A stretch of 64,000 nt of DNA from a virus. Lineage: Duplodnaviria > Heunggongvirae > Uroviricota > Caudoviricetes. The notes under the pieces were generated by a model. The model worked only from the letters and a program-made list of their open reading frames with translations. It made no database searches and was not told the DNA's origin. Where the stretch lies: IMG/VR virus record IMGVR_UViG_3300044259_000028, positions 18,283 through 82,282 of that record, one strand, 5' to 3'. The position numbers were made by a program, and so were the translations under genes. This document shows positions 8,887 through 16,824 of this stretch, piece after piece; position 1 is the stretch's first letter; every line of letters starts with the position of its first letter.

Positions 8887-9243
8887 ATGGCAGTTATCGC
8901 TATCACTACACGTACTCAGGCACCTGTAGCTGTGACAGTTAACACTCTAACAGCATCAGATACTCTTGCATACGTGGCAAATGCAAATCAAGTAATTGAA
9001 TTCCGTAACACTACAGCGTCTCCTGTTACCGTCGCTATTAAAGGGGCTGGAGCTAGTGCAACATTCCCAATTCCGGGTACAGCAGGAACTACTGTTGACC
9101 TGACAGGTGGCAAGTCTATCACTGTTCCGGGCGTTATTGGGGCTACTGTTGCTCTGAGTCTAGATGCTCTACCATCGTACCTGATTGGTGCGGTTACGGT
9201 TACAAACGGAACGGGCTTAACTGCTACTGTTCTATCGAACTAA
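8887..9243 (+). CDS. Structural protein, Thr/Val/Ala-rich (Ig-like?)
   Basis: 118 aa, good RBS. Confidence 0.3.
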   Translation: MAVIAITTRTQAPVAVTVNTLTASDTLAYVANANQVIEFRNTTASPVTVAIKGAGASATFPIPGTAGTTVDLTGGKSITVPGVIGATVALSLDALPSYLIGAVTVTNGTGLTATVLSN

Positions 9244-9261: not shown

Positions 9262-9720
9262 ATGGCTGTTTCAAAAGTACGCACAAGTGCAGGTACTACC
9301 TTATCTGTGTCACCAAATGCACCTGCTACATACGATCTGACAGGTTTTACTGCTCTTACTTTCACCACTGTAGGTGAATTGTCTGATCTTGGATCGTTTG
9401 GTAAGAAATACAATCTAGTGACTTTCAACCCACTAGGTGACCGTAAAACTGTAAAACGTAAAGGTTCATACAATAACGGTACTCTGGCCCTGAAGCTTGG
9501 ATCATCTCCAACTGATGCTGGACAGGTTATCATGGAAGCTGGTTCGAATAGTGATAACTCATATTCGTTCCTAGTGACTACTCAAAGTGGTTCTACCTAC
9601 TACTTCTCTGGCCAGATTATGGGCTGGATGCTGGAAGTTGGTAGTGTTGACCAGATCATGGGCGCAAGCGCTGATCTTGAGATTGACAACGATATCGTTA
9701 AGGGAACCCTGTTCGCTTAA
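9262..9720 (+). CDS. Major tail (tube) protein
   Basis: 152 aa. Followed by a strong terminator and then a promoter, as expected for a highly expressed tail tube gene directly upstream of the chaperone and tape measure genes. Confidence 0.5.
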   Translation: MAVSKVRTSAGTTLSVSPNAPATYDLTGFTALTFTTVGELSDLGSFGKKYNLVTFNPLGDRKTVKRKGSYNNGTLALKLGSSPTDAGQVIMEAGSNSDNSYSFLVTTQSGSTYYFSGQIMGWMLEVGSVDQIMGASADLEIDNDIVKGTLFA

Positions 9721-9723
9721 TAG

Positions 9724-9755
9724 TAATAGCCCTGCCTTCGGGTGGGGCTTTTTCG
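9724..9755 (+). terminator. Rho-independent terminator
   Basis: agccctgcc-ttcg-ggtggggct hairpin plus ttttt. Confidence 0.65.
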
Positions 9756-9771
9756 TTTGTAGCACACTTTC

Positions 9772-9800
9772 TTGACATAAGCAAGTAGTTGTGGTATTAT
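9772..9800 (+). promoter_or_regulatory. Sigma70-like promoter (TTGACA-17-TATTAT)
   Basis: ttgaca at 9772-9777, 17-nt spacer, tattat. Confidence 0.55.
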
Positions 9801-9890
9801 TGCCATACAATAGAGAAATGCAGTTAAACTTGCAGAATATCATAAACCGACAATAACTGTCAATACTATAATTTATAAAGGAACTACCAA

Positions 9891-10307
9891 ATGTCTGACA
9901 TTTCTGATCTGAGCATCCAAGAATCGACTGTACTGCACCTGACGCACCCTGCTAATGGTGAAAAACTGTACATTGACCGTAATGATAAATTCACTCTGGA
10001 AAAGACTGATAAGCCAGTGACTATCACCGTCCTATCGACTTCCTCACGTGAATACCGCATTGCTGTAAACGCTATGCACAATCGCCGTCTGAAACGCGGT
10101 AAAAAGCAAGAAACTGCTGAACAACAAAAAGAAGAAGGCGTCGAACTGCTGGTAGCCGTATGTGCTGGTAGTGAAAACCTGAAATACAAAGGTAATGCTG
10201 TTCGCGATGATGCTGATTTCCGAGCACTTCTGTCGGATGATAAAATGTCGTGGATTAAATCCCAAGTTGATGAAACGCTGGGAAGTGTAGAACTTTTCAT
10301 CGCGTAG
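9891..10307 (+). CDS. Tail assembly chaperone (lambda gpG-like)
   Basis: 138 aa, acidic, immediately upstream of the tape measure gene. Confidence 0.5.
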   Translation: MSDISDLSIQESTVLHLTHPANGEKLYIDRNDKFTLEKTDKPVTITVLSTSSREYRIAVNAMHNRRLKRGKKQETAEQQKEEGVELLVAVCAGSENLKYKGNAVRDDADFRALLSDDKMSWIKSQVDETLGSVELFIA

Positions 10308-10846
10308 TTGTTGACGAGTTAATCTTATATGTCCGTCAGGAAGCTTATTATAATGCTGTTCCTGACGGTGCTAAGATTTCTCGTGCAGAGCAAATAGAGC
10401 GCTACAACGAAGGTATTAAAGAAAAAAGGGTTAGCGACGACGACTCTGAGGAAGATGTAATCAACCTCGATGACACAACAGCTAGCGCCCAAGAGCTACA
10501 AGAGATTCCAATGCCTGACATTTCACCGGGTTCGGAATATCTTGTAGCTTTTTTGCATTCAGCAGGTACAGCTTCTGCTACAGGTATGGGGCTTGTCGGG
10601 TTATCGTGGGCAGAATTAGAAGCATGGGTTAGGTGTGCAGATATGCAAGGTATCGTCACTAGCCGAGATTTAAAAACAATTCATACGTTAAGTAGAGCGT
10701 ATGCTGGGGAGTACGCAAAGGCTTCTCAGAAAGGTGCTAAACCTCCTTATGCACCAGTAGTAGAGATTGAAGAAGTCAGAGAAGTTGTCAATGAACGTGC
10801 TGAAAACATTTTCGAAGCTATGCTACTTGAACAAGGATGGGATTAA
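10274..10846 (+). CDS. Frame -1 extension ORF with no start codon until 10511. Putative GT-like frameshift product fused to 9891..10307
   Basis: Frame 2 is open from 10274 with protein-like translation (VVVDELILYVRQEAYYNAVPDGAK...) and no ATG, GTG or TTG for 79 codons. It overlaps the end of the frame-0 chaperone by ~30 nt. G GGA AGT (10280-10286) and CTTTTC (10293-10298) are candidate slip sites. Confidence 0.4.
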   Translation, partial: NAGKCRTFHRVVVDELILYVRQEAYYNAVPDGAKISRAEQIERYNEGIKEKRVSDDDSEEDVINLDDTTASAQELQEIPMPDISPGSEYLVAFLHSAGTASATGMGLVGLSWAELEAWVRCADMQGIVTSRDLKTIHTLSRAYAGEYAKASQKGAKPPYAPVVEIEEVREVVNERAENIFEAMLLEQGWD

Positions 10847-10863
10847 TTTAATAAAGGAAAATC

Positions 10864-13800
10864 ATGGCAGAAGATATTTCCACTTTAGTACTTGAGGTGA
10901 AATCTCAAGGTATTACAAAGGGAACCAATGACCTTGATAAACTAACTGTTGCAGCAGATAAGGCTGAATCAGCAGTAAAGCGTCTAGGTACATCTTGGGC
11001 ACAGGCCCAAGTAGGAATTTCGACAGGTACAGGGAATGCCTCCGCAATGGCAGGCGCAATTACGGCCCTAACTTCCGCTATTGAAAAGTTAGGTCTGCAA
11101 CAAACTCGTGCCGCCACTACAACAAGAGTCCACAATGTTGCTATGCAGGAAGCACATGCCACTGCGCGTGGCCTAGCAGGCTCTTTAGGAATGCTTTGGA
11201 CGACCTATGGAAATCTGGCTGGTATGGCAACCGGTTTAGCAATCGGTGCTGCCTTGAAGGGCGTTGTAAGCGTTGGTGCGGAAGTTGAGAACACCTTAGC
11301 GAAAATTCAAGTGTTAGGTGGCGCAACAACTGAAGAAGTTGCTAAAATGAAAGATACACTTCTAGCAGTTGGGCAAGGTGCACAAGGACCTAAAGATGTT
11401 GCAGAAGCTTTCTCAGTTCTAACATTAGCAGGTTTAGATGCAAAACAAGCCCTACAAGGGGTAGGAGCATCGCTTAACTTAGCAGTTGCAGGTGATATCA
11501 GTATCGAAAAATCTGCGGAAACACTTGTGCAAGTTGGTACAGCGCTAGGATACACCGCTGATGGATTTAGCCGAGTCTCTGACGTTGTAGCAAAAACTGC
11601 TGCTGTCAGTATGTCATCTGTCGAGTCTATTTCTGGTGCATTCAAGTCAGCCTCATCAGTCGGTGAGTTGTACGGTGCGAGCCTAAGAGACATTGGTGTA
11701 GGTTTAGCAGCAGTCGCTAACCTTGGTATTCAAGGTACTGCTGCTGGTACTGCACTTAAAAATATGTACAAAGACTTGGCTAGTGGTAGTGAAAAAGTTA
11801 CTCAAACACTGAAAGCGATGGGATTGAGTATTAACGACCTTAAAGGTAAGGATGGATATTTCCTACCTATCTACGAGGTTATTGAAAAGCTATCACAAGG
11901 TCTAGATAAAGTTAATGACCGCCAAACTGCGCTAGGTAATCTGTTCGGTGAACGTGGTGTTAAAAGTGCATCAGCACTTATCAAAGAATATAACACAGCT
12001 TCGTCGGCATTGCAAGAAGGTGGAGAAGTATTTAAAAACAAATTAGCAGAACAGATTGACGCTATTAACAAATCCTATGGATTTGCAGCAGAAGCTGCTA
12101 TTGTTATGAGTCAAACTTCTCAGAATCAGTTTAAGTCTGTAACAAACACACTCCAGACTAGTCTGATTAAAGCTTTTGATGACCTATCACCATTAATTGG
12201 TGATATCACCCGTGGCCTAAAGGCTGCATTCACTTCACCTGAGTTTATTGGTGGATTACAGACTATCATCACAACACTAGGAAATCTGATGTTGTGGCTG
12301 ACTAAGAATGGGGATGCAGTTAAAGTAATGATTGGTGCTTTCGCAGCGTTTAAAGCACTTGATATCGCCACCTCATTAATAGCTGTAGGGGCAAGCTTAA
12401 CATCTACTGCCGTGGCTGCTGAAGCTGCTGCAACAGGTATGAGTTCTGCTGGTATCGCTGCTAGAGGATTACAAGCTGCCCTAGGTCCATTTGGTCTAGC
12501 AATCGCAGCAGTAACCACTTTATGGGTTCTGTACAAATCTAAGCAAGACGCCGCACTAAACACAAGTGCTGTTAATGACTTAGGAGATGTTCTTGACAAG
12601 CTAAAAGAAAACCAGAAACAACTTGAGACTAATCACTCAATGCGTATGAGTGGCATGAATGAGGAAGCTATCGCTGCACAAGCTGCTACTAATGCTCAAA
12701 ATAGCGCGATAGACTCCCAGATTGCTAAATCCGCAGAATCAGTTAAAAAGTTAAAAGAAGACTTAAAAGCACGTGAAGCTGCTATGAGTCAAGTAGAACG
12801 TGCGCAAGTAGAACGTGCAAAACGTGCACAAGCTGCTGGTGACAAGGCTTATGGAAGTTCTGAAGCCCGCGATTACCTGACAGCCGTTAAAGCCGTAGCT
12901 GATGCTGAAGCTAAACATCTTAACACAGTTAAGGCCCTAGGTGAACAACGTAAGATTAACTCGGAGCTTGAAAGACGTGACGCCGAAGAGGCTGATGCTG
13001 CTGCAAGAAAATCTCGTGAGCGTGTAGCAGGAACTACGTCATTGACTGGAGATGAACCAGCAAAAGGTCTAGGCACTGCATTAGCTGCTAAGATTTCTGA
13101 AATCCATACAGCTTTAGCTAATATCCAAACTGAATATAAGCAGTACATTGATGACTCTAAAACAATGGTAGCCCTTGGTGAAGCCAATATGTTTGACGAG
13201 TTGAATAATCGTAAAAAAGCAAGTAAAGAGTATTTAGCTGCAATCGAGTCTGCATATCAAATGGAGATTGCGTTAGCTGATAAGTATCGTGACAAGGATG
13301 CTAGTAAACAAAAAGCACATCAAGATGCAATGATTGCCAATGCAGGCAAATATCGTCAAAAGATGATTAGTGCAGTAACAATTGCTGACAACAAAGATGA
13401 AAATGCTGTTTATAAAAAAGAAAAAGAAGCTTACGAAAAACAAATCAATGATATTGATCGTGTAGGAGCGGCTGAAGACAAGCGTCTGTCTAACGAGTTA
13501 AAAGGACTTAAGTCCATTGAAGATGGTGCAGGTCAACTTAAGAGTGTAAAGAGTGATGCTTCTGCAATTGCAACTGAAGAACTGATTCAGCAACAACAAC
13601 TTCGTAACCTTGAGTTAGAAGAAATTATCAGTACAGGTGACGAACAACGTGCAGCAGCACAAGAAGAGTTAAGCTGGGGAGAGAAACGTGTTGCGCGTCT
13701 ACGTGCTATTGCTAATGCACATCGTGAAATTGCCTCAGCACAACGAGTAGAAGAAGCTGATACTCGTATGACTAAAAATCTTGATGATGCTGTTTCCGCT

Positions 13801-16800
13801 GCTAAACGTTTTGAAAAAGCTATGGTGGATGCGTTCGGTGCATCTGGTAAGGCTATTGGTGAAGTCGCTATTGCATTTACACAAATGAACAAGGATCAGG
13901 ATACAGCCCTTGAACGTAAACGTAAGGCTTCAAAAGAAGACCAAGAGTCCGGTAAAGCCCAAGCTGTCTACGAGCAAGAAGCATTAGATGCTCGTATTAA
14001 CGGGTATGCTAACATGGCTTCTGCTGCAAAAGGATTTTTCTCCGTTGGTAGTGCTGGATACAAAACCATGGATGGTATTGCTAAAGTTGCACATGCTGCC
14101 CAAGTAGCACGTAATCTTATCGAGATGACTCAATTAGCAACCAAGGCAGTTCTTAACCAAGCTGCTGGTGATCCGTACACAGCATTTGCACGTATGGCTG
14201 CTATGGCTGCTGCTGTAGCTGCTTTAGGCTTCGCAGTCGGCGGTGGATTCAGTGGTGGAGGTGGTGGAAAAACTGCTGAAGAGGTTCAGAAAACTCAAGG
14301 TACAGGAAGTGTGCTAGGTGCTGCATCGGCAGTATCTGAAAGCATTTCTAAGTCGCTAGAAATCGTAAAAGATAACTCAGGACTAATGCTGCCATTGAAC
14401 CAACAAATGGCTAGTTCTCTGAAAAATATTGAAACAGCTATCGCTGGTGTTGCATCACTGGTAGCACGCTCAACTGGTGTTACATCAGGAAGTAATTTCA
14501 ATGTTCAAACCGGGACAATCGGCAATGCTGGTGGTGTAGCTGGAACTATCCAAAATCTGGTTTCATCTATCCCAGTTATTGGTGGAGTCCTTGGAAATCT
14601 TGCAGGACTTTGGGGTAAGACTACGCAGAAAATTGTGGACTCCGGTATTCAATTTGCAGGTACAGTTAAATCGCTACAATCAGGTTTAGGTTATCAACAG
14701 TACGCGAGTATTGACACTACTAAATCTTCGTACTTTGGATTTAAAAAGAGTACAAGTAACCGCGTGGAAACACAAGGGTTAAGTGATGAACTATCTCAAC
14801 AATTTGGTTTAATCTTTACAGGGTTAGAAGATACATTGACAGCGGCTGCTCCATTACTTGGAAAAAGTGCTAAAGATGTTTCTACCGCAATTGATAACTT
14901 CGTATTACCATTAACTCAAATCTCGTTAAAAGGATTAGAGGGTGATGCATTAACAAATGCAATCAATGGTGTTATTTCTAAATCTCTGGATGATATTGCA
15001 AAAGCAGCGTTTCCGGGCTACGAGAAGTTTACTAAAGTTGGTGAAGGTTATTCTGAGACGTTAATTCGTCTGGCTAACGATGTAGCTACTACGCAACAAG
15101 TGTTTGAACTACTAGGTAAGACACTTGACACTACAAAAGATACAACAGTAGAAGTTGTGGAGTCCTTAGTTACAGCCGCAGGTGGTATAGATAAACTACA
15201 GAGTCTGACAAAGACATTTGTAGATGATTTCTATACTGACGCCGAGAAATTAGCACCTGTTCAGTCGGCATTGACAGCAAGAATGTCTGAGTTAGGTTTT
15301 AGTTCTGTTAAAACAAACGATCAGTTCAAGGCATTGGTATTGTCACAAGACTTGACAACAGAAGCCGGACAGAAAATGTATGTGCAATTACTAAACCTTG
15401 CACCAGCATTTAAATCTGTTACTGATGCTTTAGAGAAGGCTTATACCTCTGCAATGACATTGCTAACAGGTGCACAAAATGCCCTTAAAGACAGTGTTAG
15501 TGCTGAAATTACTAAGCTTGATACCAAACTTACAATCGATAAAGCTAATCTGACAAAAGCTCAAAAGGCTGAAGATGAAGCTGCTAAAGATAGACACCAA
15601 ACTAACTTAGATAATATCGAAACTGAAGGAAAAGCACAATTAGAGGCTGCTAAAGCTGCTAGTGAGGTTGCCAAGAAAGCTAATGATGCTGCATTGTCAG
15701 CAGCAAAAGAACGTGAAACTTCTATCCAGAAAATTCTTGATAGTATCGACACTTCATTAACTGCTACAGAACAGTATGACCTAGCAGCAGCACATGCTAA
15801 AGCATTGGAGACAGTACGTAATGCTACTGCATCAGGTGATATCGCCAACTTCGCAGGATTAGATGATGCTATTAAAGAACTTGCAAAACCTACAGAAAGT
15901 CTGTTTAGCTCGTTCGCTGATTATCAGATTAGCCAAGCTCAAGCTAATGCAGCACTACTAGGATTGAAAGGTGCTGGTACAAATCAATTGACTGATGCAC
16001 AGAAACAAGTGCAAGCATTGACAAGTATTAAAGATGCATTAGAAGTCACTGGTCAAGCTACTATCGATGCGATTAACAAATCTATTGACGATCAAAAGTC
16101 GGCTGAAAATGACCGTTATGACAAGGAACAAAAAGCCTTAGATAATCGTCATCAAGAAGAGTTAGATAAGCTTCAAGCAACTCACGATGGCCAAGTTGCA
16201 GTATTAAATAGCATTCTAACAGAAGCTCAAAGCCAAATCGATGCAATAACCGGTGTTGATACGAGCATTAAAGCTCTGTCTGAAGCCATCCTCAACTTTG
16301 CGAAGTCTGTTGACAAAGCTAATGCTGCTGCTACTAATGCTGGAAAAGATACGACAACCACAAACGCAACAAAAGGTAATACTGCGTTTATCGAGTCGTT
16401 ATTCAATAGTTTGCTTGGCCGCTCAAGTGACAAAGAAGGTATGGCATTCTGGCTTAAAGCTCTTGAAAACGGAGCTACAAGGGAAAGTATTACGCAAGAC
16501 TTCCTGAATAGTGACGAGTACAAGAAACTACATCCAGAAGCATCATTTGCAGTTGGTACAGACTTTGTGCCTAATGATATGGTCGCTAATATCCATAAAG
16601 GCGAGCGTATTATTCCAGCCGCAGATAACGCAGAACTGATGAGACGCTTGAACACTGATGAAGCTACTCCTGAGTCTTCCAAACAAGCATTGCTTGATAG
16701 CAAGATGGATGAGTTAATCGACGCAGTTAAACGTGGAGATGTTGCTAACGTTCAAAAGACGAATGATATGTATCGTATCCTTCGCGATTGGGATGGTAAC

Positions 16801-16824
16801 GGTCTACCTCCAACACGTACATAA
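10864..16824 (+). CDS. Tail tape measure protein
   Basis: 1986 aa, long Ala/Gln/Lys-rich helical sequence with a hydrophobic central region. C-terminal ~60 aa resemble a DUF4214-type fold. Confidence 0.9.
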   Translation: MAEDISTLVLEVKSQGITKGTNDLDKLTVAADKAESAVKRLGTSWAQAQVGISTGTGNASAMAGAITALTSAIEKLGLQQTRAATTTRVHNVAMQEAHATARGLAGSLGMLWTTYGNLAGMATGLAIGAALKGVVSVGAEVENTLAKIQVLGGATTEEVAKMKDTLLAVGQGAQGPKDVAEAFSVLTLAGLDAKQALQGVGASLNLAVAGDISIEKSAETLVQVGTALGYTADGFSRVSDVVAKTAAVSMSSVESISGAFKSASSVGELYGASLRDIGVGLAAVANLGIQGTAAGTALKNMYKDLASGSEKVTQTLKAMGLSINDLKGKDGYFLPIYEVIEKLSQGLDKVNDRQTALGNLFGERGVKSASALIKEYNTASSALQEGGEVFKNKLAEQIDAINKSYGFAAEAAIVMSQTSQNQFKSVTNTLQTSLIKAFDDLSPLIGDITRGLKAAFTSPEFIGGLQTIITTLGNLMLWLTKNGDAVKVMIGAFAAFKALDIATSLIAVGASLTSTAVAAEAAATGMSSAGIAARGLQAALGPFGLAIAAVTTLWVLYKSKQDAALNTSAVNDLGDVLDKLKENQKQLETNHSMRMSGMNEEAIAAQAATNAQNSAIDSQIAKSAESVKKLKEDLKAREAAMSQVERAQVERAKRAQAAGDKAYGSSEARDYLTAVKAVADAEAKHLNTVKALGEQRKINSELERRDAEEADAAARKSRERVAGTTSLTGDEPAKGLGTALAAKISEIHTALANIQTEYKQYIDDSKTMVALGEANMFDELNNRKKASKEYLAAIESAYQMEIALADKYRDKDASKQKAHQDAMIANAGKYRQKMISAVTIADNKDENAVYKKEKEAYEKQINDIDRVGAAEDKRLSNELKGLKSIEDGAGQLKSVKSDASAIATEELIQQQQLRNLELEEIISTGDEQRAAAQEELSWGEKRVARLRAIANAHREIASAQRVEEADTRMTKNLDDAVSAAKRFEKAMVDAFGASGKAIGEVAIAFTQMNKDQDTALERKRKASKEDQESGKAQAVYEQEALDARINGYANMASAAKGFFSVGSAGYKTMDGIAKVAHAAQVARNLIEMTQLATKAVLNQAAGDPYTAFARMAAMAAAVAALGFAVGGGFSGGGGGKTAEEVQKTQGTGSVLGAASAVSESISKSLEIVKDNSGLMLPLNQQMASSLKNIETAIAGVASLVARSTGVTSGSNFNVQTGTIGNAGGVAGTIQNLVSSIPVIGGVLGNLAGLWGKTTQKIVDSGIQFAGTVKSLQSGLGYQQYASIDTTKSSYFGFKKSTSNRVETQGLSDELSQQFGLIFTGLEDTLTAAAPLLGKSAKDVSTAIDNFVLPLTQISLKGLEGDALTNAINGVISKSLDDIAKAAFPGYEKFTKVGEGYSETLIRLANDVATTQQVFELLGKTLDTTKDTTVEVVESLVTAAGGIDKLQSLTKTFVDDFYTDAEKLAPVQSALTARMSELGFSSVKTNDQFKALVLSQDLTTEAGQKMYVQLLNLAPAFKSVTDALEKAYTSAMTLLTGAQNALKDSVSAEITKLDTKLTIDKANLTKAQKAEDEAAKDRHQTNLDNIETEGKAQLEAAKAASEVAKKANDAALSAAKERETSIQKILDSIDTSLTATEQYDLAAAHAKALETVRNATASGDIANFAGLDDAIKELAKPTESLFSSFADYQISQAQANAALLGLKGAGTNQLTDAQKQVQALTSIKDALEVTGQATIDAINKSIDDQKSAENDRYDKEQKALDNRHQEELDKLQATHDGQVAVLNSILTEAQSQIDAITGVDTSIKALSEAILNFAKSVDKANAAATNAGKDTTTTNATKGNTAFIESLFNSLLGRSSDKEGMAFWLKALENGATRESITQDFLNSDEYKKLHPEASFAVGTDFVPNDMVANIHKGERIIPAADNAELMRRLNTDEATPESSKQALLDSKMDELIDAVKRGDVANVQKTNDMYRILRDWDGNGLPPTRT

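What the first reader, a model, noticed from the sequence alone, without database searches (positions are those of the whole stretch)
9891..10846. Probable programmed -1 frameshift (G/GT-type) in the tail assembly chaperone
The 138-aa ORF 9891..10307 ends ~560 nt upstream of the tape measure gene. The -1 frame is open from 10274 to 10846 and reads like real protein (VVVDELILYVRQEAYYNAVPDGAKISRAEQIERYNEGIK...), yet has no start codon for 79 codons. The track's ATG at 10511 has no RBS. This is the geometry of the lambda gpG/gpGT frameshift conserved upstream of tape measure genes. The ~30-nt overlap contains G GGA AGT (10280-10286, a near-miss of G GGA AAG) and CUUUUC (10293-10298).
Basis: partly seen in the sequence, partly recalled or inferred. 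Interest (0 to 1): 0.55.

Follow-up and report, generated by a model that had tools for sequence, protein, structure and literature searches.

The report
Phage tail chaperone -1 frameshift
An uncultured soil-type phage almost certainly makes a second, longer version of its tail-assembly helper protein by letting a few ribosomes slip back one base at a conserved U-UUC; this trick is well known in tailed phages, so the finding is real but ordinary.

Summary
The slip site is corrected and an RNA element is added.

- **Geometry.** ORF 9891..10307 (138 aa) sits between the major tail gene and a 1986-aa tape measure gene. Its predicted fold matches tail/tape-measure chaperones.
- **The -1 frame.** It is open from 10274 to 10846, with no ATG/GTG/TTG for 79 codons. 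It shows coding periodicity directly after the G stop.
- **Relatives.** 23 distinct related junctions from metagenomes keep the same layout. In several, the -1 frame opens only one codon before a strictly conserved N_NNU_UUY.
- **Slip site.** This pins the slip to A_CUU_UUC (10292-10298): tRNA-Phe re-pairs from UUC to UUU. The base before UUY is U in 23/23 junctions (Leu always CUU, Arg always CGU), while nearby wobble sites vary.
- **Hairpin.** A long hairpin (about 10308-10393) follows the site. It is far more stable than shuffled or synonymously recoded versions in nearly all relatives. Column-wise covariation is weak.
- **Predicted product.** A 318-aa GT fusion with the junction ...SVELF|HRVVVDE....

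No experiment is available. This is a new member of a known kind, with a tetramer-type slip site rather than a canonical heptamer.

The parts
9878..9882 (+). Shine-Dalgarno AAGGA of the chaperone (G) gene
   Evidence: The same motif precedes most of the + strand structural genes. There is none before ATG 10511.
9891..10307 (+). G: tail assembly (tape-measure) chaperone ORF, 138 aa, zero frame
   Evidence: - ORF.
- 36 homologues with F136 invariant.
- AF2 model, pLDDT 91.
- Foldseek BFVD hits to proteins named tape-measure chaperone, E 1e-4 to 1e-2.
10274..10307 (+). Overlap in which both the zero frame (G) and the -1 frame (T) are open, 34 nt
   Evidence: The equivalent overlap shrinks to 16 nt in several relatives.
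10292..10298 (+). Slip site A_CUU_UUC. The core is the tetramer U_UUC (10295-10298): tRNA-Phe re-pairs from UUC (10296-98) to UUU (10295-97), and the next codon read is CAU (10298-10300).
   Evidence: - N_NNU_UUY is present in all 23 distinct junctions.
- The codon before Phe is always U-ending: CUU, CGU, GUU or AAU.
- Other wobble positions nearby vary.
- It is the only slippery motif inside the 16-nt overlaps.
10308..10393 (+). Long imperfect stem-loop in the mRNA. The centroid core is 10313-10386 and the apical loop about 10345-10354. It starts 9 nt (MFE) to 14 nt (centroid) after the slip site and is the putative frameshift stimulator.
   Evidence: - Window fold: -33.8 kcal/mol, z -3.9.
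- An equivalent hairpin appears in nearly all relatives.
- z is -2 to -6 in 16/17 loci, among the lowest few to ~12% of local windows.
- Native sequences are more stable than synonymous recodings: mean z -2.7, 19/23 below -1.64. Control regions give mean z +0.8 to -1.2.
10298..10846 (+). T: -1-frame extension, 182 codons plus stop. It is expressed only as the 318-aa G-T fusion (136 aa of G + 182 aa).
10421..10510 (+). Acidic, variable, low-confidence linker within T (EKRVSDDDSEEDVINLDD...)
   Evidence: Alignment A1 has its gaps here. pLDDT is below 50 for T residues 42-71.
10505..10843 (+). Conserved C-terminal domain of T, beginning at the invariant IPMP motif. The ATG at 10511 is the Met of this motif.
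   Evidence: -: I70, P71, M72 and P73 are invariant.
- PHROG 18915 match, E 3.5e-8.
- Distant tblastn hits in Salicola and Acinetobacter phages.
9262..9720 (+). Context: major tail protein gene
   Evidence: PHROG 158, E 1.4e-15.
10864..16824 (+). Context: tape measure protein gene, 1986 aa
   Evidence: The orthologous genes in relatives carry PF10145 PhageMin_Tail and PF13946.

Best explanation
Genes 9891..10307 and 10298..10846 form a lambda G/GT-type pair of tail assembly chaperones.

**Proposed mechanism**
1. Most ribosomes translate G (138 aa) and stop at UAG 10305.
2. A minority slip back one base at A_CUU_UUC (10292-10298). tRNA-Phe leaves UUC and re-pairs cognately with UUU. The P-site tRNA-Leu on CUU cannot re-pair well, so this is essentially a Z_ZZN tetramer (single-tRNA) slip rather than a tandem slip.
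3. A long hairpin beginning 9-14 nt downstream (10308-10393) probably stalls the ribosome over the site and raises the slip rate to the per-cent range.
4. The shifted ribosome reads CAU and continues for 182 codons. The result is a 318-aa fusion (...LGSVELF-HRVVVDELILYVRQ...) made of the G fold, a helical segment, an acidic linker and a conserved C-terminal domain.
5. By analogy with lambda, the G parts coat the tape measure protein and the rare T domain recruits the major tail protein. Neither protein ends up in the virion.

**Shown**
- The frame geometry.
- Coding constraint in the -1 frame directly after the G stop.
- Absence of a conserved start.
- Strict nucleotide-level conservation of U_UUY.
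- An unusually stable downstream structure maintained at synonymous sites.
- A chaperone-like fold for G.

**Inferred**
- That the fusion is actually made.
- Its ratio to G.
- That the hairpin is the stimulator.
- The roles of G and T.
For: **Synteny and fold**
- Gene order.
- G model, pLDDT 91. Best PDB match is the HK97 tail assembly chaperone, with YqbN at rank 4.
- BFVD matches to annotated tape-measure chaperones, including the 161/310-aa pair of Caulobacter phage Sansa.

**The -1 frame is coding with no start**
-.

**Slip site**
- 23/23 distinct junctions carry N_NNU_UUY 1-7 codons before the G stop.
- The -1 frame opens one codon before UUU in L003, L017, L021, L025, L028-L030 and L033.
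- The three Arg-Phe variants all use CGU. All Leu variants use CUU, which is only 24.5% of Leu codons in the window.
- Distant relatives keep the motif: L002 (30% identity to G) has G_CUU_UUU, and GenBank Salicola phage CGphi29 has A_AAU_UUU.

**Hairpin**
-.

**Literature**
- U_UU.C and U_UU.U rank just below A_AA.G among -1 tetramers in E. coli. They are barely shifty alone and reach 0.26-5.6% with a 3' stimulator. They are also used by IS elements (PMC4066793).
- Lambda needs G:GT of about 30:1, and T7 gene 10 uses G_GUU_UUC (PMC5009743).
Against: - There is no experimental evidence of any kind.
- The window's site is not a canonical X_XXY_YYZ heptamer, and the P-site tRNA cannot re-pair.
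- RNAalifold finds no consensus structure.
- With the window's structure imposed on the alignment, 70% of cells pair against 33-39% when slid. Pairs with compensatory changes (6) are no more than in shuffles (181/500). The structure was also derived from one of the sequences.
- The pairing register differs between subgroups.
- The centroid stem starts 14 nt after the site, longer than the classical 5-9 nt.
- The relatives are phylogenetically related, so the counts are not independent.
- About half of the relatives have a TTG/GTG within about 12 codons of the slip site, and gene callers used these as starts.
- The host is unknown: the scan of 185,579 genomes gave nothing.
Confidence: 0.85

Rival explanations
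1. T is an independent gene. It would be translated either from ATG 10511 (111 aa, as in the original annotation track) or from a non-canonical or TTG/GTG start near the LYVRQ motif, with no frameshift.
For: - Gene callers produced 174-214-aa T proteins starting at or near LYVRQEAYY in 19 database entries.
- The Met at 10511 is invariant.
- PHROG 18915 (135 aa) and the Salicola and Acinetobacter homologues are annotated as stand-alone proteins.
Against: - The window and 10 other distinct relatives have no ATG/GTG/TTG in the first 40 codons. Where starts exist they are at varying positions and none has an SD.
- Residues upstream of those starts (V-V-D-E-L-I-L) are conserved, and coding periodicity begins right at the G stop.
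- ATG 10511 lacks the AAGGA motif used by neighbouring genes. It sits in an invariant IPMP motif, which explains its conservation. The Gln codon before it is always CAA, never the CAG that would create AGGAG.
- An internal start would leave 70 conserved codons unexplained.
Confidence: 0.05
2. The frameshift is real but occurs at the lambda-like G_GGA_AGU (10280-10286).
For: It resembles lambda's G_GGA_AAG and lies inside the window's 34-nt overlap.
Against: - In L003, L015, L017, L019, L021, L025, L028-L030, L033 and L034 a -1-frame stop lies between this position and the UUUY run, so the site cannot be used there.
- The sequence is not conserved: only the GG of a Gly codon is invariant.
- tRNA-Ser on AGU cannot re-pair with AAG.
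Confidence: 0.02
3. The frame change is made by RNA polymerase slippage on the T run, or it is an assembly error or an inactivating mutation (pseudogene).
For: The site contains a short homopolymer: T4 in the window and T5 in some relatives.
Against: - T4-T5 is well below the run lengths at which transcriptional slippage is productive (my own knowledge, not tested here).
- The same frame arrangement is found in 23 distinct junctions from independent metagenomes, and in a GenBank isolate genome. That rules out error or recent decay.
Confidence: 0.03
4. The frameshift is real, but the downstream hairpin is not its stimulator. It might serve mRNA stability or processing, or pace translation. Slippage on U_UUY alone, or with another unrecognised element, would give enough GT.
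For: - Weak column-wise covariation and shifting register.
- The spacer to the stable core is 14 nt.
- Lambda-type ratios need only a few per cent.
Against: - Tetramers alone are at background in E. coli and need a 3' stimulator (PMC4066793).
- The structured window is positioned consistently right after the site. It is the most structured of the regions tested across G and T.
Confidence: 0.25

Closest known systems
Phage lambda gpG/gpGT tail assembly chaperones (Levin, Hendrix & Casjens 1993; Xu, Hendrix & Duda 2004, 2013, 2014), as summarised in PMC5009743
   Same: - Two overlapping ORFs lie between the major tail gene and the tape measure gene.
- The second ORF is in the -1 frame without its own start.
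- The slip occurs a few codons before the G stop.
- The expected result is a low-ratio fusion product.
   Different: - Lambda uses the two-tRNA heptamer G_GGA_AAG. Here only the A-site-type tetramer U_UUC can re-pair.
- There is no detectable sequence similarity to lambda G or T.
- T here is longer (182 aa), with an acidic linker.
- A long downstream hairpin is present.
Phage T7 gene 10A/10B frameshift at G_GUU_UUC (cited in PMC5009743)
   Same: The -1 slip is driven by tRNA-Phe moving from UUC to UUU, after a U-ending codon whose tRNA re-pairs imperfectly. One relative (L017/L031) has C_GUU_UUU.
   Different: - It occurs in a capsid gene, not a chaperone.
- The T7 stimulator is a distant 3' element.
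- The product has a different role.
Z_ZZN tetramer frameshift signals of IS1/IS3 elements and synthetic reporters (Sharma et al. 2014, PMC4066793)
   Same: The motif is U_UU.Y, and it depends on a 3' structure. Expected efficiency is in the 0.3-6% range.
   Different: - Those are transposase genes.
- Their stimulators are compact hairpins or pseudoknots 5-8 nt away.
- Here the structure is an ~80-nt imperfect hairpin inside conserved coding sequence.
HK97 tail assembly chaperone (PDB 2ob9), B. subtilis YqbN (3klu), and the annotated tape-measure chaperones of Caulobacter phage Sansa and E. coli phage Seurat
   Different: - Sequence identity is 4-22%.
- There are no Pfam or NCBIfam hits.
Salicola phage CGphi29 genes SLPG_00033/00034 (HQ634153)
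   Same: - Both G (hhalign E 1.3e-5) and T (tblastn E 4e-4) are distant homologues.
- The order G, T, tape measure is the same.
- T is in the -1 frame, which is open back through an A_AAU_UUU heptamer in G.
   Different: - It is annotated as two separate hypothetical proteins.
- Its heptamer is canonical.
- An in-frame ATG lies 19 codons after the slip site.

Membership tests
G/GT-type tail assembly chaperone frameshift (Xu, Hendrix & Duda 2004) | Two consecutive ORFs located between the major tail protein gene and the tape measure gene | tested here: met
   Major tail 9262-9720 (PHROG 158), G 9891-10307, T to 10846, TMP 10864-16824. The order is the same in relatives.
G/GT-type tail assembly chaperone frameshift (Xu, Hendrix & Duda 2004) | The second ORF overlaps the end of the first in the -1 frame and lacks its own initiation signals | tested here: met
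   - 34-nt overlap and 79 codons without ATG/GTG/TTG.
- No SD at 10511.
- 11/23 relatives have no start in the first 40 codons.
G/GT-type tail assembly chaperone frameshift (Xu, Hendrix & Duda 2004) | A slippery sequence in the overlap, conserved in position among relatives | tested here: met
   N_NNU_UUY in 23/23 distinct junctions, plus L002 and Salicola CGphi29.
G/GT-type tail assembly chaperone frameshift (Xu, Hendrix & Duda 2004) | The first ORF encodes a protein with the tail assembly chaperone fold | tested here: met
   - AF2 model, pLDDT 91.
- Foldseek hits to named tape-measure chaperones, E down to 1.6e-4.

The scores are modest, so this is met but not strongly.
G/GT-type tail assembly chaperone frameshift (Xu, Hendrix & Duda 2004) | The fusion protein is made at a low fixed ratio to G, is required for tail assembly, and is absent from virions | not testable with these tools
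   Needs proteomics and genetics on a cultured phage.
Canonical tandem-slippage -1 PRF signal (X_XXY_YYZ) | Both the P-site and A-site tRNAs can re-pair in the -1 frame | tested here: not met
   The window has A_CUU_UUC. tRNA-Leu on CUU would face ACU. The pattern is met only in the A_AAU_UUY relatives L003, L024, L034 and Salicola.
Z_ZZN tetramer -1 PRF signal with 3' stimulator (Sharma et al. 2014) | A Z_ZZN motif in the zero frame that allows cognate A-site tRNA re-pairing | tested here: met
   U_UUC at 10295-10298. U_UU.Y ranks second among tetramers.
Z_ZZN tetramer -1 PRF signal with 3' stimulator (Sharma et al. 2014) | A stable RNA structure a short distance 3' of the motif | tested here: met
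   - Hairpin 10308-10393, z -3.9.
- It recurs in relatives and is maintained at synonymous sites.
- The spacer is 9 nt (MFE) or 14 nt (centroid).
- Column covariation is not significant.
Z_ZZN tetramer -1 PRF signal with 3' stimulator (Sharma et al. 2014) | The structure actually raises frameshift frequency | not testable with these tools
   Needs reporter assays with stem-disrupting and compensatory mutations.

The most novel reading that the evidence does not exclude
This ~90-kb siphovirus lineage, including a distant high-GC relative and Salicola phage CGphi29, may have fixed a minimal single-tRNA slip signal (U_UUY). The signal would be made productive by an unusually long (~80 nt) hairpin. 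That hairpin is written into the synonymous sites of the most conserved part of T, and its pairing register drifts between sub-lineages while the hairpin itself is kept. If so, this would be a distinct, evolutionarily stable class of tail-chaperone frameshift signal that heptamer-based PRF finders miss.
Probability: 0.5. Interest if true: 0.4.

Novelty: new member of a known kind. Interest (0 to 1): 0.3.

Why it matters
**Annotation.** The 111-aa ORF called from ATG 10511 is almost certainly wrong. The correct products are G (138 aa) and a 318-aa G-T fusion. The same fix applies to dozens of metagenomic relatives and to Salicola phage CGphi29.

**Method.** The case shows that comparative narrowing of the overlap, down to 16 nt, can pin a slip site to a tetramer that heptamer-based finders would miss.

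**Experiment.** It offers a natural U_UUY-plus-hairpin signal for testing single-tRNA slippage.

It does not change the general picture of tail assembly.

Tried and rejected
**Searches that returned nothing useful**
- No near or protein-level match to G in GenBank phages.
- T gave only six weak hits.
- Pfam and NCBIfam gave nothing meaningful for G or T.
- PHROGs gave only families of unknown function.
- A PDB sequence search with the G profile found nothing.
- The scan of 185,579 bacterial and archaeal genomes found no prophage relative, so the host remains unknown.
- Rfam found no family in 9600-10900.

**Structure attempts**
- RNAalifold gave an empty consensus.
- Imposing the window's structure on the alignment gave no significant compensatory signal. 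I therefore relied on per-sequence thermodynamic tests with shuffles, local-window ranking and synonymous recoding.
- The AF2 model of T was too poor (pLDDT 56) for a fold search.

**Ideas considered and dropped**
- An upstream SD-like stimulator as in dnaX: only the GG of a Gly codon is invariant 14-15 nt upstream.
- The 10-bp stem CCGTCAGGAA/TTCCTGACGG as a stand-alone element: it is part of the longer hairpin, and its exact pairs are not conserved.
- A +1 slip of tRNA-Leu on CUU_U, as in prfB: it leads to the wrong frame.

Full report
**1. Observation.**

- ORF 9891..10307 (138 aa) starts at an ATG preceded by AAGGA. It ends at UAG 10305-10307, 557 nt before the 1986-aa ORF 10864..16824.
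- The -1 frame has two stops at 10268-10273 and is then open to 10846.
- The first ATG/GTG/TTG in that frame is ATG 10511, 79 codons in.
- That ATG has no Shine-Dalgarno motif. By contrast, 17 of the 19 listed + strand ORFs from 2630 to 23279 have an SD-like motif, mostly AAGGA(G), 5-8 nt upstream.
- Within 19 structural genes of the window, the -1 frame carries a stop at 11% of codons and its longest open run is 67 codons. A 190-codon open -1 frame is therefore not a chance event: about 3e-10 at that rate, and about 1e-4 for the 79 start-less codons alone.

**2. Context.**

PHROG and Pfam profiles identify the neighbouring genes:
- head closure (7648)
- tail completion (8028)
- tail terminator (8454, PF13554)
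- major tail protein (9262)

The big downstream ORF is the tape measure. Its orthologues in relatives carry PF10145 PhageMin_Tail. So the pair sits exactly where tail assembly chaperones are encoded.

G has no sequence-family hit, but structure supports the assignment:
- An AlphaFold model built on 36 homologues is confident (pLDDT 91).
- Among predicted viral structures it matches proteins annotated as tape-measure chaperones of Caulobacter phages Sansa and CcrColossus and E. coli phage Seurat, at E 1e-4 to 1e-2 and TM 0.5-0.6.

The scores are modest but point one way.

**3. The start-less stretch is protein-coding.**

The phage has no close relative in GenBank. Relatives were recovered from three sources:
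- IMG/VR
- JGI and ENA metagenomes
- contigs found through protein hits

Together these gave 34 related loci, which collapse to 23 distinct junction sequences at 48-79% protein identity. The window's own protein is in the database as a JGI entry on an 82-kb contig (P0020). Relatives sit on 85-92-kb contigs.

The evidence for coding is:
- tblastn matches to the -1-frame translation begin at its first residue after the G stop.
- Over 10307-10402, mean pairwise differences by -1-frame codon position are 0.23/0.18/0.55.
- Just upstream of the junction the same pattern (0.30/0.18/0.60) holds in the G frame.

The phase of coding constraint therefore jumps by -1 at the junction.

**4. No conserved start.**

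- Gene callers gave many homologues a start at or near the LYVRQEAYY motif.
- In DNA these are TTG or GTG codons at varying positions. None has an SD.
- 11 of 23 junctions, the window among them, have no ATG/GTG/TTG in the first 40 codons after the junction.
- Conserved residues (V-V/T-V-D-E/A-L/A-I/E-L) lie upstream of those codons.
- The Met at 10511 is invariant, but as part of an invariant I-P-M-P motif.
- The Gln codon two codons before it is always CAA (or CGA Arg), never CAG. A strong AGGAG is therefore never formed there.

**5. Where the ribosome slips.**

- The overlap of the two frames is 34 nt in the window. It is only 16 nt in L003, L025, L028-L030 and L033, and 19-22 nt in L015, L019 and L034.
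- The only feature common to all overlaps is a zero-frame N_NNU_UUY, with the Phe codon 1-7 codons before the G stop.
- Phe136 is invariant in all 36 G homologues. The preceding residue varies: L, N, R or V.
- I predicted that the Arg variants would use CGU, one of six Arg codons. All three do.
- Every Leu is CUU (24.5% of Leu codons in this genome), every Val is GUU and every Asn is AAU.
- The base before UUY is U in every distinct junction examined (17/17, plus the six further ones). The wobble positions 3, 6, 9 and 12 nt further upstream are variable.
- A relative with only 30% identity in G (L002, high GC) has G_CUU_UUU in the same place. The GenBank Salicola phage CGphi29 has A_AAU_UUU, with the -1 frame open from there through the annotated start of its T-like gene. 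The G of CGphi29 is a distant homologue (hhalign E 1.3e-5).

The window's site is thus A_CUU_UUC, 10292-10298.

**6. Mechanism.**

- After a -1 move, tRNA-Phe pairs cognately with UUU.
- The P-site tRNA cannot re-pair: Leu on CUU would face ACU, Arg on CGU would face NCG, and Val on GUU would face NGU. Only the AAU variants re-pair. This step is inferred from the standard pairing rules.
- The signal is therefore essentially a Z_ZZN tetramer.
- In E. coli, U_UU.C and U_UU.U rank just below A_AA.G among the 16 tetramers. They are near background alone and reach 0.26-5.6% with a 3' stimulator. IS1/IS3 elements use them too (PMC4066793).
- T7 gene 10 uses the related G_GUU_UUC (PMC5009743).
- A per-cent-level yield is what a G/GT system needs. 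Lambda's ratio is about 30:1 (PMC5009743).

**7. Downstream RNA structure.**

*In the window.* The window's 108 nt from the slip site fold into a long imperfect hairpin at -33.8 kcal/mol (z -3.9; 0 of 200 shuffles fold as well). In the MFE it starts 9 nt after the heptamer, and in the centroid 14 nt after.

*Tests based on aligned columns were weak.*
- RNAalifold on 17 aligned junctions returns no consensus.
- Imposing the window's structure gives 70% paired cells against 33-39% when slid, but no excess of compensatory pairs.
- The reason appears to be that the pairing register differs by a few nucleotides between sub-lineages.

*Tests on each sequence separately were strong.*
- Folded individually, almost every sequence forms a hairpin with the same centre.
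- The mean pair-probability profile over 23 sequences rises from +10, dips at +46 to +55 (the loop), and stays high to +90. Pairs concentrate on anti-diagonals i+j = 97-105.
- A 90-nt window starting 7 nt after the Phe codon has z -2 to -6 in 16 of 17 loci. It ranks among the lowest few to ~12% of windows within +/-1.8 kb, while flanking windows are mostly near 0.
- The native 93 nt are much more stable than sequences encoding the same peptide with resampled synonymous codons: mean z -2.7, 19 of 23 below -1.64.
- Six control regions in G and T give mean z from +0.8 to -1.2.

I conclude that a structure is maintained by selection on synonymous sites. That it stimulates the frameshift is an inference from its position and from the known dependence of tetramers on a stimulator.

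**8. Product.**

- G is 138 aa.
- GT is 136 aa of G plus 182 aa, 318 aa in total, with the junction ...ETLGSVELF|HRVVVDELILYVRQEAYY....
- T consists of a conserved helical N-terminal segment, an acidic variable linker (10421-10510, low pLDDT), and a conserved C-terminal domain starting at IPMP.
- The functions of G and T (binding the tape measure, recruiting the major tail protein) are by analogy with lambda and were not tested.

**9. Rivals.**

- Independent initiation of T, a slip at G_GGA_AGU, transcriptional slippage, and error or pseudogene are each contradicted by the comparative data.
- The one open sub-question is whether the hairpin is the stimulator.

**10. Verdict.**

The finding is real and the G/GT reading is supported. 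The slip site is refined to U_UUC and a conserved downstream hairpin is added. It is a new member of a well-known kind in an undescribed phage lineage. Its specialist interest is modest and lies in the tetramer-type site and the register-drifting hairpin. There is a practical consequence: the 10511 start is a mis-annotation, and Salicola phage CGphi29 lacks the frameshift annotation.

Noticed in passing
window 9728-9759 and 9772-9800: The 170-nt gap between the major tail gene and G holds two signals. One is a terminator-like hairpin (9 pairs, 6 GC) followed by TTTTTCGTTT, just after the major tail stop. The other is a near-consensus promoter (TTGACA-17-TATTAT with TG, 11/12). Relatives keep a gap of about 150-165 nt at the same place. 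This may set the ratio of major tail protein to chaperone/TMP transcripts.
   Followed up: partly
L035 2354-2845 (Salicola phage CGphi29, HQ634153, SLPG_00033/00034): This GenBank phage annotates two separate hypothetical proteins. However, the -1 frame is open from an A_AAU_UUU heptamer in the G-like gene through the annotated ATG of the T-like gene, directly upstream of the 1419-aa tape measure-sized gene. It is probably an unannotated G/GT frameshift.
   Followed up: partly
L036 2555-2875 (Acinetobacter phage Effie gene 90) and hits H1, H2, H4: The conserved C-terminal domain of T has weak homologues (29-31% identity, E 6e-7 to 2e-6) in Acinetobacter phages. In Effie, the one whose context I checked, the gene lies two genes upstream of the terminase rather than in the tail module. 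The domain may be a mobile module with a wider role.
   Followed up: no
window 10388-10401: GAGCAAATAGAGCG (encoding E-Q-I-E-R) is nearly invariant at the nucleotide level across relatives. This includes synonymous sites and the generally rare Ile codon ATA. It overlaps only the outermost 3' pairs of the MFE hairpin, so the conservation is not fully explained.
   Followed up: partly
window 10499-10513: Upstream of the invariant Met of the IPMP motif, the sequence is always CAAGAG or CGAGAG followed by ATTCCN ATG (21 junctions). The Gln codon is never CAG. This could be avoidance of a strong internal Shine-Dalgarno sequence, or retention of a weak one.
   Followed up: partly
window 8887-9243: A 118-aa Ala/Thr/Val-rich ORF lies between the tail terminator and major tail genes. 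It has no family hit. Genes of 116-118 aa occupy the same position in relatives.
   Followed up: no
P0012 and P0018 (T homologues), alignment A1 columns 139-163: Two T homologues carry a 20-25-residue basic insertion (for example EKPLVRKLGSRHAAQRQRKK) inside the conserved C-terminal domain.
   Followed up: no
P0035 (G homologue, JGI): One G homologue is named 'electron transfer flavoprotein alpha subunit' by its source. This is evidently a mis-annotation.
   Followed up: no
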